Part shown: in pieces, positions 18,001 through 21,000 of the stretch
How positions within the stretch are numbered: the first letter of the stretch is position 1
Layout of the letters: every line of letters starts with the position of its first letter
Origin: a virus
Strand: one strand, 5' to 3'
Length of the DNA: 32,319 nucleotides
Virus genome (UHGV): UHGV-0201657
Position numbers: made by a program

Positions 18001-21000
18001 TACGCTGATCAGGAGGTGAGTATTGGAATACGGTTTTGCCATTTATAACAGAAATAACGTTAATGTTACGGGCGTGCTTACTCCCATATTTTTCCTGGAC
18101 AGGTTTACGGCGGAGTCGGGATCAAAAACGTATACGAATAAACCAGAAGGGAAAACATTGCAGGCAGTCTGTTCATTATTTCCGTGGAATAATGTATTTA
18201 AGGACCGGAAAGTACCGAAGATAACCATTAATGGCAATACGGTGATGTGGTCAAATCTTGAGCAGGGGATGGGGTCATATATTTATACATTCTGGGGGTG
18301 AGTTGTATGTATGGTTTAAGCATTACGAAACCAGATGGCAGCTTGTGGATAAGCCCGGGGTTTACGCCTCAGTGTCTGATCAATAAGGGAACTATTCCGG
18401 CGACTGAGAAGGCTTTTTTTAAAACGTCAATTCCGTCAGGAAAAAGTTGTTTTTTCTTTATCAGAACAGAGAAGAAGGCCGATGTCATGTACACGCATGA
18501 ACAGATTGATGGATATCATGCCTTAAGGCTTCATCAAATTGTCAGGGGAACGAATCCTGGTGTTACGACTGTTTATGCTTTTGCGAATATGGTTACTCAA
18601 CCTTCTGAGTATGGTATCGCCATGTATAATCCGTTGGGTGAGATGATTTACCATGGCGAAATGATGCTGCTTGACGCGAAGTTAATACCTGTTGATATCA
18701 AATTTGAAAAGGACCTTGGATATCCATGCGCAATTATGCCTGCACTGGTCGGGTATTATAACTGGAAAAGAACTCCTTATGATCGACCGATTTATACCAC
18801 ATCCACTGGCGCTACAGGAAATAAAATATATTCCTGTGAGCATTATTCAGGTGGTGCAACATGGGATATTCGAAAGCCTTATGTAGACAAAGTTCTTGTT
18901 ATTAATACTTCAATGTATGATTAGCACAATAAAATTTATCAATCATTTTAAGAAAAATTTTTATTTTTTATTTCCAGGCAGGATGGTAAATAATCAAAAA
19001 TGTGGAAAGGACAGAGAGAACAATGTTTTTAATATAGGAAGATTCTTAAAATGAAAAGTATCACAAAATTTCTTGTGTGCGCAACTCTGGGCTTAGGTGG
19101 ATTAACTGCACAGGCACATGCTGCATCTGGTGATAGTACCGTATCCCTTGGATTCGCTCACCTTCAGCTATCCGGGCTGAATAATTTTGTTAAGGATTTA
19201 AGTCTTCATAACCTTGATACCTTTAACAATTTTGTGAATGAAAACTATTTCAATTCACCTGGAGAATATGACGATGCGTTTGTCCGGGGCCATGATGGTA
19301 AAGAGAAAAGTCCCTTGGGAATGAACATTAAGTATCGTTATGAGATTACGGATGAGATCGGTGTTATAACCTCTTTTGCATGGGCTCGATCCATGACTAA
19401 TGCACAGGCATTCATTGATGTTAAGCCTTCCGATCCATCACGAGAGGTAAAAAAACCGGCAGCTTCAGCGAGAACTGATATCAGGGCTAATTACTGGAGT
19501 CTACTATCCGGTCCTTCGTGGCGGTTTAATGAATACCTCAGTGTGTATTCAATGGCAGGTGTTGCGGTTGCAAAAGTAACTTATGATTTGAAAGTTAACG
19601 ACAATCTTAATGGTGGTGTAGGTAGTTTTTCTGAAAGTAACAGCACCAAAAAAACGTCTATTGCATGGTCTGTCGGCGCGCAATTTAACTTCAATGAAAG
19701 TGTTACTATGGACGTCACTTATGAAAGCTCAGGCTCTGGCGACTGGAAAACTGATGGTTTATTTGCAGGCATTGGCCTGAAATTCTGAGTAATACCCGAC
19801 AACATGTCATAACCCGCTGTGATGGCGGGTTTTTTGTTGCCCGTGCAGGGCAAAAATCGTAGATTATGCGCGGGTGTCTTTCGGCTGATGGCTGGAAGGT
19901 GAACCTGAAGGCCTGATGTGGAAAGGCCCCGAGTCAAACATTTTGTTTAACCCGAGGCCCTAACCATCATACCTTAAGCAAGTAGAAGGTTAGCGCCTCT
20001 CCACTCAGGAGGCAAGCGCTATGTCGCAAAAATCGCTCATCACCGTCACAATTTGTATGACGGTAATCTTCACCATCTGGATGTTACACGGCTCGTTGTG
20101 TGAGTTCCGGCTGAATTTGTGGGGAGCGGAGTTTGCGGCGTTCTTACAGTGTAAGCAGTAGGAAAACCGCGACGGGGACGAAAGTCCCCGTCAACTGGTT
20201 GCTGAGGTTCAGCCGATATGGCACCCGTTTCTGGTGAGAGAATGGACGACAAAATTCTCCGGTATATGCAGCGTGTTGTGAGAAATTCCCGCAACCCTGA
20301 ATTTATGAATGAAGTTAAAGACGCCTGCCTTAAAAAGCAGGCGTTTTGTTTTGAGGCACCTGATGGCTTTCTGGTGCTGCGTTCTGTGCTCAGTGCTGAT
20401 GGTATCCCTTATGTTTTGGTGTTGCTGGGCGTGTGTACGGGGAGTAACAGCGTTGAGCGTTATCTGCCGGAGGTGAAGACATTAACCCGTCTGGCTGGCG
20501 GACGCTGGGCTGAATTTCATACGGCAAGACGGGGATTTATCCGGCTGGGAAAACGTCTGGGCTTTGAGCGAATGCCGGATGATGAGGATGGCTTCATGGT
20601 GTTCAGGATAGCGGTCTGACTGCCACTGTATTCATTATCGTGTGTAAACCAATTGCAATTCACATTCTGACCCTGCCCCGGCAGGGTTTTTTGTTATCCA
20701 GGGGGCCATAATGGGCGGAAAAAAAGGCGGTGGTGATACCAAAGTAAAACCAACAGCAGCGCAAATAGCACAGGAAGAAGTGGCCTGGAAAGGGTGGCAG
20801 GATTATCAAAAAATCCTCCGCCCGGCTGAAGATAACTTCATGGAAAAGGTCGATGACCTGAACAGTGAGCAGCAGTACGACAATATTGCTGGCACCACAA
20901 ATCTGGGGTATCAGAAACAGTTTGGCGAAGCACGGAAGGAGCTGGCGGGTAATCTTGCTCAGTCCGGTGTTGACCCGTCCAGTGGTCGCTTTAACGCGGT

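What the first reader, a model, noticed from the sequence alone, without database searches (positions are those of the whole stretch)
19837..20192. Unannotated Hok/Gef-like type I toxin micro-ORF with flanking RNA structure
A 46-aa ORF (20021-20161), below the 60-aa track cutoff, has a strong SD and a TM helix followed by SLCE...EFAAFL, the Hok-family signature. A perfect 9-bp GAAA-tetraloop hairpin follows the stop (20171-20192). Upstream, a -35/-10-like pair (TTGCCC 19837-19842, 17 nt, TAGATT 19860-19865) overlaps a second hairpin. I found no mok-like overlapping frame and could not pin down a Sok-like antisense promoter, so the regulatory half is unresolved. This could be a prophage-stabilising or abortive-infection module.
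Basis: partly seen in the sequence, partly recalled or inferred. Interest (0 to 1): 0.7.

Follow-up and report, generated by a model that had tools for sequence, protein, structure and literature searches.

The report
Known Hok/Sok toxin-antitoxin cassette
The 46-codon ORF is a real Hok-family membrane toxin gene with a probable antisense RNA antidote, sitting beside lom in a Shiga-toxin-type prophage; databases already annotate it and this exact peptide has already been shown to be toxic, so it is ordinary apart from lacking the usual "mok" leader frame.

Summary
ORF 20021-20161 passes Pfam HOK_GEF (33.2 bits, cut-off 22). RefSeq annotates it as "Hok/Gef family protein" WP_000078907.1. It is peptide 72_1589 in a 2025-26 Hok catalogue, where it was cloned and counted among the toxic homologs.

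It belongs to a ~390-bp cassette (19837-20229) present in 1750 of 5426 complete E. coli genomes. The cassette occurs after lom in 933W/Sp5-type phages, after ogr in P2-like prophages, between J and the tail fibre in lambdoid prophages, and on a plasmid.

A Sok-like antisense promoter lies on the minus strand (TTGCCT, 17 nt, TAACCT). It predicts a ~60-nt RNA with a free 5' tail and a hairpin that is stable only on the antisense strand. Also present are 5'/3' closure (tac/fbi), tac/ucb, an SD-sequestering hairpin, and a covarying 3' stem-loop.

A mok frame is absent here, and there is no evidence that one is maintained by selection across the clade. Function is inferred only.

This locus is distinct from the published hokW-sokW, and the 933W and VT2-Sakai reference records leave it unannotated.

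Verdict: already known, low interest.

The parts
19837..20229 (+). Whole hok/Sok-type cassette: promoter through the fbi element.
   Evidence: blastn to copies in unrelated contexts covers window 19852-20226. Alignments lose similarity before about 19836 and after about 20229.
19837..19865 (+). hok mRNA promoter: -35 TTGCCC, 17-nt spacer, -10 TAGATT. The inferred +1 is G19872.
   Evidence: TTGCCx-17-TAGATT followed by 6 nt and then GGGTG is present in most of 75 variants. It aligns with hokW's TTGCGG/TAGAAT. Position 1 of the Rfam RF01794 model aligns to 19872.
19872..19888 (+). tac element at the 5' end of the mRNA (GGGUGUC..UCGGCUGA). It pairs with either fbi or ucb.
   Evidence: The MFE of the full-length RNA pairs 19872-78 with 20220-26, and it also pairs the 19881-88 stretch with the 20209-16 stretch (dot-bracket). 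Helix 1 is 98.1% paired and helix 2 is 85.9% paired across 77 sequences.
19920..19930 (+). ucb-like box GGAAAGGCCCC. It pairs with tac in the 3'-shortened RNA.
   Evidence: The MFE of the 19872-20195 RNA pairs 19872-78 with 19925-30. The RNAalifold consensus contains the same 5' hairpin.
19918..19980 (-). Predicted Sok-like antisense RNA of about 60 nt: a 5' single-stranded tail of about 14 nt, a long hairpin (19959-19925) and a UUU tail.
   Evidence: MFE -30.3 kcal/mol, z -5.96. The hairpin is more stable on the antisense strand in 22 of 22 variants, by 8.5 kcal/mol on average; in the window it is -24.3 against -12.3. Its position matches the annotated 71-nt sokW.
19987..20015 (-). Sok-like promoter: -35 TTGCCT (20015-20010), 17-nt spacer, -10 TAACCT (19992-19987). 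TSS is about 19979-19980.
   Evidence: The hexamers and spacing are identical to those read upstream of the annotated sokW start in 933W. The sokW -10 is functionally supported by the promoter-less mutant made with primers YO-421/422. TTGnnn-17/18-TAA(C/T)CT is present in 75 of 75 variants.
19954..19977 (+). Vestige of the mok start region: GAGG (19954-57), 8 nt, AUC (19966) where hokW has AUG, then a stop at TAA 19975.
   Evidence: Comparison with mokW by eye; the automated pairwise alignment instead places a gap over the mokW ATG, so the AUC equivalence is my reading. Frame scan. None of the relatives has an ATG at this position.
19992..20020 (+). Hairpin that sequesters the hok SD: AGCGC/GCGCU and CUCUC/GGAGG.
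   Evidence: -15.6 kcal/mol. Helix 4 is 99.7% paired. P(unpaired) of the SD is about 0.17 in both the full-length and the truncated fold.
20007..20012 (+). hok Shine-Dalgarno AGGAGG, 8 nt before the ATG.
   Evidence: Sequence. The catalogue's supplementary table lists SD 'GGAGG' for this peptide.
20021..20161 (+). hok coding sequence, 46 aa.
   Evidence: Pfam PF01848 33.2 bits against a cut-off of 22. PHROG 251. RefSeq WP_000078907.1. dN/dS 0.22. Identical to the tested peptide 72_1589.
20133..20141 (+). Downstream box UUGCGGCGU that pairs with the hok start region AUGUCGCAA (20021-20029).
   Evidence: MFE. RNAalifold. Helix 6 is 99.1% paired, and all changes are one-sided and compatible with pairing.
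20171..20192 (+). 3' stem-loop (9 bp, GAAA loop). Probably the protective end of the processed mRNA.
   Evidence: 99.6% paired; 5 of 9 pairs have changes on both sides, in up to 28 sequences. The role is inferred from R1, where the last stem-loop protects the truncated hok mRNA from exoRNases.
20209..20226 (+). fbi element UCAGCCGA..GGCACCC, which closes the mRNA by pairing with tac.
   Evidence: GGGTGCC/GGCACCC co-occur in 61 of 75 variants, and most of the single changes are G.U-compatible.

Best explanation
This is a self-contained type I toxin-antitoxin cassette of the hok/Sok family.

Shown:
- A weak constitutive-type promoter (19837-19865) is placed to drive a ~360-nt hok mRNA from about G19872.
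- In its full-length form the RNA folds back on itself. The 5' tac pairs with the 3' fbi at 20209-20226. The SD sits in a local hairpin and the start codon pairs with 20133-20141. Hok is therefore expected to be off.
- The opposite strand carries a promoter equivalent to the sokW promoter, whose -10 hexamer was tested by mutation (20015-19987). It predicts a ~60-nt Sok-like RNA complementary to the leader at 19918-19980.
- The 46-aa peptide is a membrane toxin. The identical peptide was toxic when over-expressed.

Inferred by analogy with R1 hok/Sok and Sp5 hokW-sokW:
- 3' trimming back to the 20171-20192 stem-loop removes fbi. tac then pairs with ucb and the leader becomes open to Sok.
- The Sok-mRNA duplex is cleaved by RNase III while Sok is being made.
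- When Sok synthesis stops, the stable mRNA is translated and Hok depolarises the inner membrane. Sok could stop on prophage induction, through convergent late transcription across its promoter, or on loss of the element.

Particular to this clade: there is no mok leader frame. Hok must therefore either be translated directly from its own well-spaced AGGAGG SD, or be expressed very weakly.
For: - Family identity: Pfam HOK_GEF above the gathering score; PHROG 251 'MokW-like host killing'; RefSeq annotation.
- Toxicity: the exact peptide 72_1589 was cloned and is not among the three non-toxic homologs of the 45 tested.
- Purifying selection on the peptide: dN/dS 0.22.
- Leader architecture: it matches the hok leader model RF01794 end to end, E 1e-5, and aligns with hokW.
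- Fold-back: thermodynamic folds reproduce tac/fbi in the full-length RNA and tac/ucb in the shortened RNA.
- Structure conservation: 87.9% of cells paired against 35-49% for slid controls, and the 3' stem-loop covaries.
- Sok promoter: conserved in 75 of 75 variants, with the same hexamers as sokW, whose -10 was tested by mutation.
- Antisense hairpin: favoured on the minus strand in 22 of 22 variants; the predicted RNA folds with z -5.96.
- Autonomy: the cassette is found in at least five unrelated genomic contexts.
Against: - No transcript data exist for either strand of this locus.
- The Rfam hit is below the gathering score (35.1 against 59).
- The Sok-like RNA ends in only three U residues and was not called as a terminator.
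- Conservation of the TAACCT and TTG hexamers could also be explained by sense-strand helices that use the same bases.
- The tac/fbi bases hardly vary, so that helix has no true covariation.
- In R1, mok translation up to the hok SD is mandatory for Hok synthesis. Here mok is missing and the SD is sequestered in a -15.6 kcal/mol hairpin. Native expression of Hok may therefore be negligible.
Confidence: 0.85

Rival explanations
1. Disarmed copy. The cassette keeps its RNA elements and an intact toxin ORF, but because the mok frame is lost Hok cannot be translated from the native mRNA. The locus is then a silent passenger, or acts only as an RNA.
For: In R1, mok start-codon mutations and premature stops upstream of hok abolish toxicity. 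The window has AUC where hokW has AUG, and stops at 19948, 19961 and 19975. The SD and the AUG are paired in all modelled states. 44 of 75 variants lack any overlapping upstream ORF.
Against: dN/dS of 0.22 shows that the peptide is still under selection, including between mok-less variants. The hok ORF is intact in almost all variants. The clade lacks about 8 nt that hokW has between the SD region and the ATG, which puts a strong SD 7-8 nt from the ATG, unlike hokW. The upstream ORFs that are open start at ATGs placed beside or inside the ucb/tac stem, and their frequency (31 of 75) is not clearly above a rough chance expectation of about 20% per frame, which is my own estimate, given how related the sequences are.
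Confidence: 0.25
2. Canonical three-gene hok/mok/sok locus in which mok is simply hard to see, for example because it starts at a non-AUG codon.
For: GAGG is followed after 8 nt by AUC at exactly the mok start position. An R1-like frame (-1 relative to hok, ending 7 nt before the hok stop) is open in some relatives; that R1's mok has this frame relation rests on my memory of the R1 sequence.
Against: In the window, AUC is followed by a stop after three codons. No ATG, GTG or TTG opens a frame that reaches the hok SD. The position is one of the least conserved of the leader (0.76).
Confidence: 0.05
3. Chance micro-ORF with fortuitous hairpins; not a gene.
For: The ORF is only 46 codons. The promoter hexamers are weak, 8 of 12 by my count, and the scan did not list them.
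Against: Curated profile hits, conservation with dN/dS 0.22, covarying structure, and experimental toxicity of the identical peptide.
Confidence: 0.01

Closest known systems
Hok cluster 72, peptide 72_1589 (Escalera-Maurer et al., bioRxiv 10.1101/2025.08.07.668861); RefSeq WP_000078907.1 'Hok/Gef family protein'
   Same: Identical 46-aa sequence, listed with SD GGAGG. It was cloned as pAZ3::72_1589 and falls among the 42 of 45 homologs that were toxic on arabinose induction. The same RefSeq protein is annotated at this position next to lom in E. coli genomes.
   Different: Nothing differs at the protein level. That study deliberately did not analyse the mok, Sok or mRNA elements, which are worked out here.
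hokW-mokW-sokW of phage 933W / Sakai prophage 5 (Takada et al. 2021, PMC8621323)
   Same: Same family and the same phage type. The promoter, the GGGUG 5' end, the AAAGCCCC box, the AGGUUAGC box and the AGGCAAG box all align. The Sok promoter hexamers TTGCCT/TAACCT and the 17-nt spacing are identical.
   Different: It is a different locus. hokW lies near attR on the other strand (933W 58460-58734) and encodes a 51-aa peptide only 37% identical over 35 residues. hokW has an in-frame mokW; this locus has none. The Sok hairpin here is shorter. hokW is not in the window.
hok/mok/Sok of plasmid R1 (Gerdes and colleagues; revisited by Le Rhun et al. 2022, PMC9841398)
   Same: tac/fbi closure, tac/ucb switch, an anti-SD, a terminal protective stem-loop about 37 nt before the 3' end, and an antisense RNA aimed at the leader.
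   Different: R1 strictly needs mok translation up to the hok SD, and here no mok frame exists. R1 hok/Sok is a plasmid post-segregational killer; this cassette is prophage cargo.
Chromosomal HokA (NCBIfam NF007290)
   Same: Best NCBIfam match, E 9e-10.
   Different: 38.4 bits against a cut-off of 89, so it is not a HokA equivalog.

Membership tests
Hok/Gef toxin family (Pfam PF01848) | The peptide scores above the curated gathering threshold of the HOK_GEF profile. | tested here: met
   33.2 bits against 22, E 4e-8, profile positions 6-42 of 42. PHROG 251 gives E 2.8e-24.
Hok/Gef toxin family (Pfam PF01848) | Small peptide of about 50 aa with an N-terminal hydrophobic helix, then the conserved L-C-E motif and a C-terminal E..A.F segment. 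| tested here: met
   The sequence reads LITVTICMTVIFTIWML, then GSLCEFR, then AEFAAFLQCKQ. C27, A39 and C44 are invariant, and G24, S25, L26, E28, E37, F38 and F41 are conserved in 90% or more of the 31 clade members. It aligns to HokW across this region.
Hok/Gef toxin family (Pfam PF01848) | Toxic to the host when expressed. | not testable with these tools
   Literature only. The identical peptide 72_1589 was tested, and only 19_179, 60_1482 and 69_1540 were non-toxic.
hok/Sok type I TA locus (R1 paradigm) | A cis-encoded antisense RNA (Sok) with its own promoter, complementary to the hok mRNA leader. | tested here: met
   Computational only. The promoter is conserved in 75 of 75 variants and matches that of sokW. 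The hairpin is stable only on the antisense strand in 22 of 22 variants. The predicted RNA has z -5.96. Expression was not tested.
hok/Sok type I TA locus (R1 paradigm) | An overlapping mok reading frame whose translation is needed for hok translation. | tested here: not met
   No start codon opens a frame that reaches the hok SD in the window. The position of the mokW ATG is ATC, by my manual alignment. Only 31 of 75 relatives have any overlapping upstream ORF.
hok/Sok type I TA locus (R1 paradigm) | Long-range 5'-3' pairing (tac/fbi) that locks the full-length mRNA. | tested here: met
   The MFE pairs 19872-78 with 20220-26 and the 19881-88 stretch with the 20209-16 stretch. These helices are 98.1% and 85.9% paired across 77 sequences. 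The bases barely vary, so this is conservation rather than covariation.
hok/Sok type I TA locus (R1 paradigm) | Alternative tac/ucb hairpin in the 3'-processed mRNA, and a terminal protective stem-loop. | tested here: met
   tac/ucb appears in the fold of the truncated RNA and in the RNAalifold consensus. The 20171-20192 stem-loop has 5 of 9 pairs with compensatory changes.
hok/Sok type I TA locus (R1 paradigm) | 3' exonucleolytic processing, RNase III cleavage of the duplex, and differential RNA stability. | not testable with these tools
   Needs Northern blots or RNA decay assays.
Rfam RF01794 'sok' (in practice a model of the hok leader) | Score at or above the gathering threshold (59 bits). 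| tested here: not met
   35.1 bits, E 1e-5, full-length match to 19872-20032 on the plus strand. Nothing in the window reaches gathering thresholds.
Known anti-phage defence systems (PADLOC) | Match to a PADLOC protein model. | tested here: not met
   No hit at E <= 0.01.

The most novel reading that the evidence does not exclude
The 46-aa Hok clade is a naturally mok-less branch of hok/Sok. Its toxin would be translated from its own SD, and the Sok-like RNA would act by mRNA destruction or structural trapping rather than by blocking a leader peptide. In 933W/Sp5-type Stx phages it would be a second Hok module, overlooked in the phage literature and co-oriented with the late operon. It could act redundantly with hokW-sokW on lysis timing and phage and Shiga-toxin release, which would help explain why deleting hokW-sokW gave only partial phenotypes.
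Probability: 0.35. Interest if true: 0.4.

Novelty: already known. Interest (0 to 1): 0.18.

Why it matters
The toxin needs no further discovery work. It is annotated, catalogued and tested.

Three practical points do follow:

- The reference records of the two best-studied Stx2 phages, 933W and VT2-Sakai, leave this gene unannotated. These phages therefore carry two Hok modules, and published hokW-sokW deletion phenotypes were measured with this one still present.
- The cassette is a compact mobile unit found in a third of complete E. coli genomes, at the cargo positions of several prophage families.
- It offers a natural test of whether hok/Sok regulation can work without mok. That question is of interest mainly to type I TA specialists.

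Tried and rejected
- Promoter scan: the generic scan found neither the hok nor the Sok promoter, because both fall below its 9-of-12 rule. They were located by homology instead.
- RNAduplex test: scoring the 5' end against 51-nt windows across the whole window was uninformative. The observed -33.8 kcal/mol sits against a background of -22.5 +/- 4.7, and several unrelated windows scored better. I relied on full-length folding and comparative counts instead.
- The search for related loci: it cannot take a 46-aa single query. With the clade alignment, the species-representative genomes gave only 7 loci, three of them from implausible hosts.
- Conserved ATG 19916 as a mok substitute: rejected. Its ORF length ranges from 6 to 79 codons, it is M-stop in L017 and L019, it is absent in L009 and L010, and it abuts the tac/ucb stem.
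- hokW identity: I checked whether this locus is the published hokW. It is not.
- PADLOC and PDB sequence searches gave nothing.
- Literature searches for a description of a lom-adjacent hok in Stx phages found none.
- Structure prediction was not attempted. It would add nothing for a 46-aa helix-type peptide.
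Full report
**1. What is in the sequence**

- Upstream gene: lom. An Ail/Lom family outer-membrane protein (19051-19788; Pfam PF06316) ends with a rho-independent terminator at 19811-19831.
- Promoter-like pair: TTGCCC (19837-42), 17 nt, TAGATT (19860-65).
- ORF: a GGGUG-initiated leader is followed by AGGAGG (20007-12), 8 nt, then ATG 20021. The ORF has 46 codons and ends at 20161.
- 3' hairpin: a perfect 9-bp hairpin with a GAAA loop at 20171-92.

The peptide MSQKSLITVTICMTVIFTIWMLHGSLCEFRLNLWGAEFAAFLQCKQ scores 33.2 bits on Pfam HOK_GEF, whose gathering score is 22. 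It also scores E 2.8e-24 on PHROG 251 'MokW-like host killing'.

**2. Where the window comes from, and whether this is known**

The 572 bases around the ORF are 100% identical to prophages in several E. coli genomes. They are 92-99% identical to about 185 Stx-converting phages of the 933W/Sp5 type.

- RefSeq annotates the ORF as 'Hok/Gef family protein' WP_000078907.1.
- The exact peptide is entry 72_1589 of a large Hok survey (bioRxiv 10.1101/2025.08.07.668861). It sits in a 'high-abundance cluster', was cloned as pAZ3::72_1589, and was tested by arabinose induction.
- That paper names only three non-toxic homologs out of 45, and this peptide is not one of them.

The toxin half of the finding is therefore already in the databases and has experimental support.

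**3. It is not the published hokW-sokW**

In 933W, the annotated hokW/mokW/sokW lie at 58460-58734 near attR, on the opposite strand.

- HokW has 51 aa and is 37% identical over 35 residues to this peptide.
- hokW's start sequence is absent from the window.
- In both reference phages the 429-bp gap after lom is unannotated, yet it encodes the identical 46-aa peptide. The ATG is at 45660 in 933W (NC_000924) and at 44701 in VT2-Sakai (NC_000902).

These phages therefore carry two hok loci. The hokW-sokW deletion strains of Takada et al. (PMC8621323) kept this one, and that paper does not mention it.

**4. Extent and mobility of the cassette**

Matches at 75-83% identity in other contexts cover window 19852-20226 only. 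Alignments lose similarity before about 19836 and after about 20229.

The same block is found in several unrelated places:

- after ogr at the end of P2-like prophages;
- between the J tail-tip gene and the tail-fibre gene of lambdoid prophages;
- on a plasmid;
- in an O157 island;
- in Salmonella, E. albertii and Citrobacter.

1750 of 5426 complete E. coli genomes have a match. The peptide is under purifying selection, with median dN/dS 0.22 over 562 pairs.

The non-coding leader is more conserved than the coding sequence. Mean column identity is 0.95 for 19872-19930 and 1.00 for 19987-19999, against 0.89 for the CDS.

**5. The mRNA**

Rfam's 'sok' model RF01794 is 157 nt long and ends at an AUG, so it effectively describes the hok leader. 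It matches the plus strand at 19872-20032 from end to end (35.1 bits, E 1e-5), which is below its gathering score of 59.

Folding 19872-20229 gives a closed molecule:

- GGGUGUC (19872-78) pairs with GGCACCC (20220-26).
- UCGGCUGA (19881-88) pairs with UCAGCCGA (20209-16).
- The SD sits in a local hairpin of -15.6 kcal/mol.
- AUGUCGCAA (20021-29) pairs with UUGCGGCGU (20133-41).

Removing the last ~35 nt switches the 5' end to pair with GGAAAGGCCCC (19920-30). This reproduces the tac/fbi to tac/ucb switch of the R1 hok mRNA (PMC9841398).

Across 77 sequences the structure I specified is paired in 87.9% of cells, against 35-49% when partners are slid by 1-3 columns.

- The tac/fbi, SD-flank and start-codon helices are 98-99.7% paired, but their bases hardly vary. 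That is conservation, not covariation.
- The 3' stem-loop covaries genuinely: 5 of 9 pairs change on both sides, in up to 28 sequences.
- This stem-loop lies about 37 nt before the end of the cassette. It is positioned like the terminal stem-loop that protects truncated R1 hok mRNA from exonucleases.

**6. The antisense RNA**

I used the annotated 71-nt sokW as a guide. The homologous minus-strand promoter in the window is TTGCCT (20015-20010), 17 nt, TAACCT (19992-19987). The hexamers and spacing are the same as those read upstream of the annotated sokW start in 933W.

The sokW -10 element has experimental backing. The 'pro-less' mutant of Takada et al. was made with primers that convert TAGGTTAG to CCGGCTCG, which destroys TAACCT, and it lost antitoxin activity.

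TTGnnn-17/18-TAA(C/T)CT is present in all 75 unique variants examined.

Transcription from about 19979/80 would give a ~60-nt RNA with a 5' single-stranded tail of about 14 nt, a long hairpin and a UUU end. Its MFE is -30.3 kcal/mol with z -5.96.

The hairpin is strand-specific. Three G.U pairs on the minus strand become C.A mismatches on the plus strand.

- In the window the fold is -24.3 kcal/mol antisense against -12.3 sense.
- The antisense fold is the more stable one in 22 of 22 distinct variants, by 8.5 kcal/mol on average.
- The sense version is only 71.8% paired in the alignment.

This is the best sequence-only evidence that an antisense RNA is under selection.

Two caveats apply. The U-tail is short and was not called as a terminator. 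The promoter hexamers also take part in sense-strand helices, which could contribute to their conservation.

**7. mok**

- GAGG (19954-57) is followed after 8 nt by AUC (19966) where hokW has the mokW AUG. This equivalence is my manual alignment; the automated alignment gaps that region. A stop follows three codons later.
- No ATG, GTG or TTG opens a frame that reaches the hok SD.
- No relative has an ATG at the canonical position.

In 31 of 75 variants an ORF from ATGs at -130 or -103 runs across the hok start in the -1 frame. It ends at +83 or at +134, which is 7 nt before the hok stop; from my memory of the R1 sequence, this is the frame relation of R1's mok. In 44 variants, including the window and its closest relatives, the ORF is broken.

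Several points argue that this ORF is not maintained by selection:

- These ATGs sit next to or inside the tac/ucb stem.
- The ORF is M-stop or lacks the ATG in the more distant members.
- My rough expectation for a 34-codon frame being open by chance is about 20% (my estimate, not computed from these sequences).
- The sequences are related to one another, which inflates the observed count.

I therefore see no evidence of selection for this ORF.

In R1, mok translation up to the hok SD is mandatory. This clade must therefore either translate hok directly or express it very weakly. Compared with hokW it lacks about 8 nt between the SD region and the ATG, which places AAGGAG or AGGAGG 7-8 nt from the start. 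That fits direct translation. I favour the direct route because the peptide is clearly under selection, but this is inference.

**8. How it most likely works and what it is for**

- Shown: toxin identity, cassette conservation, RNA architecture and the position of the antisense promoter.
- Inferred from R1 and hokW-sokW: slow 3' trimming activates the stable mRNA. The labile Sok-like RNA pairs with 19918-19980 and triggers RNase III decay. Loss of Sok synthesis lets Hok accumulate and depolarise the membrane.

The cassette is co-oriented with the late operon. Q-antiterminated late transcription would therefore run head-on into the Sok promoter and would also produce hok RNA without a defined 3' closure. 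This gives a simple route to Hok expression late in induction. It fits the finding that hokW-sokW speeds growth arrest and doubles Sp5 release.

Prophage stabilisation and abortive infection remain possible. PADLOC has no model that matches.

**9. Verdict**

- Novelty: already known. The gene is annotated in RefSeq, and the identical peptide has been catalogued and shown to be toxic.
- What this analysis adds: the regulatory map; the demonstration that the locus is distinct from hokW-sokW and missing from the 933W and VT2-Sakai records; and the observation that the clade shows no sign of a selected mok frame.
- Interest is low (0.18). The most novel reading still open is a functional mok-independent Hok/Sok acting as a second lysis-timing module in Stx phages. 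I give it about 0.35 probability, and it would be of moderate interest.

Noticed in passing
window 20218-20619 (+): The downstream 133-aa ORF probably starts at ATG 20242, not 20218. The PHROG 610 profile (124 positions) aligns from residue 9. ATG 20218 lies in the internal loop of the fbi element and arises from an A-to-T change found only in the Stx-phage copies of the cassette.
   Followed up: partly
window 20321-20344 (both strands): A 10-bp GC-rich hairpin flanked by T-runs scores as an intrinsic terminator on both strands, although it lies inside the PHROG 610 coding sequence. It could be the real end of hok read-through transcripts, or an attenuator within the late operon.
   Followed up: no
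window 20162-20193 (-): The hok 3' stem-loop followed by CGGUUUUCC reads as a good intrinsic terminator on the minus strand. The A-run GGAAA(A)CCG before the stem is conserved in all copies. It might shield hok from antisense transcription entering from downstream.
   Followed up: no
L003 (933W NC_000924, record 45428-45856) and L142 (VT2-Sakai NC_000902, record 44469-44897): Both reference Stx2 phage records leave the lom-orf gap unannotated, yet it encodes the identical 46-aa Hok. Each phage therefore has two hok loci, and the published hokW-sokW deletion strains retained this one.
   Followed up: yes
L014-L016 (after ogr), L021, L017-L018 (J to tail fibre), L019 (plasmid), L020 (O157 island): The same ~375-bp cassette, 75-83% identical, sits at cargo ('moron') positions of unrelated prophage families and on a plasmid. 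This implies horizontal movement of the cassette as a unit.
   Followed up: partly
L004, L005, L007: Contigs labelled Xanthomonas pisi, a Planococcaceae MAG and Vagococcus sp. (a 226-kb contig) carry an E. coli/Salmonella-type copy of the cassette at 76-100% peptide identity. This is probably assembly contamination or mislabelling.
   Followed up: no
L106:7295-7665: In one IMG/VR variant the hok 3' end and the 3' UTR are replaced. The peptide ends ...FAAFLLNRPGNPGD (51 aa) and the fbi is lost, which indicates a recombination breakpoint inside hok.
   Followed up: no
window 19877: The window has a private C-to-T change in the tac element (GGGUGUC, against GGGUGCC in the other 76 aligned sequences). 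It turns a G-C pair with fbi into G.U.
   Followed up: partly
window 19837-19853: The hairpin TTGCCCGTGCAGGGCAA over the hok -35 exists only in the Stx-phage subgroup. P2-type copies have TTGCCGGAGTAACAAAA there.
   Followed up: partly
window 23422-31776 (+): A 2784-aa ORF lies downstream. Its 933W counterpart is annotated as an LPD5 domain-containing protein. It was not examined.
   Followed up: no
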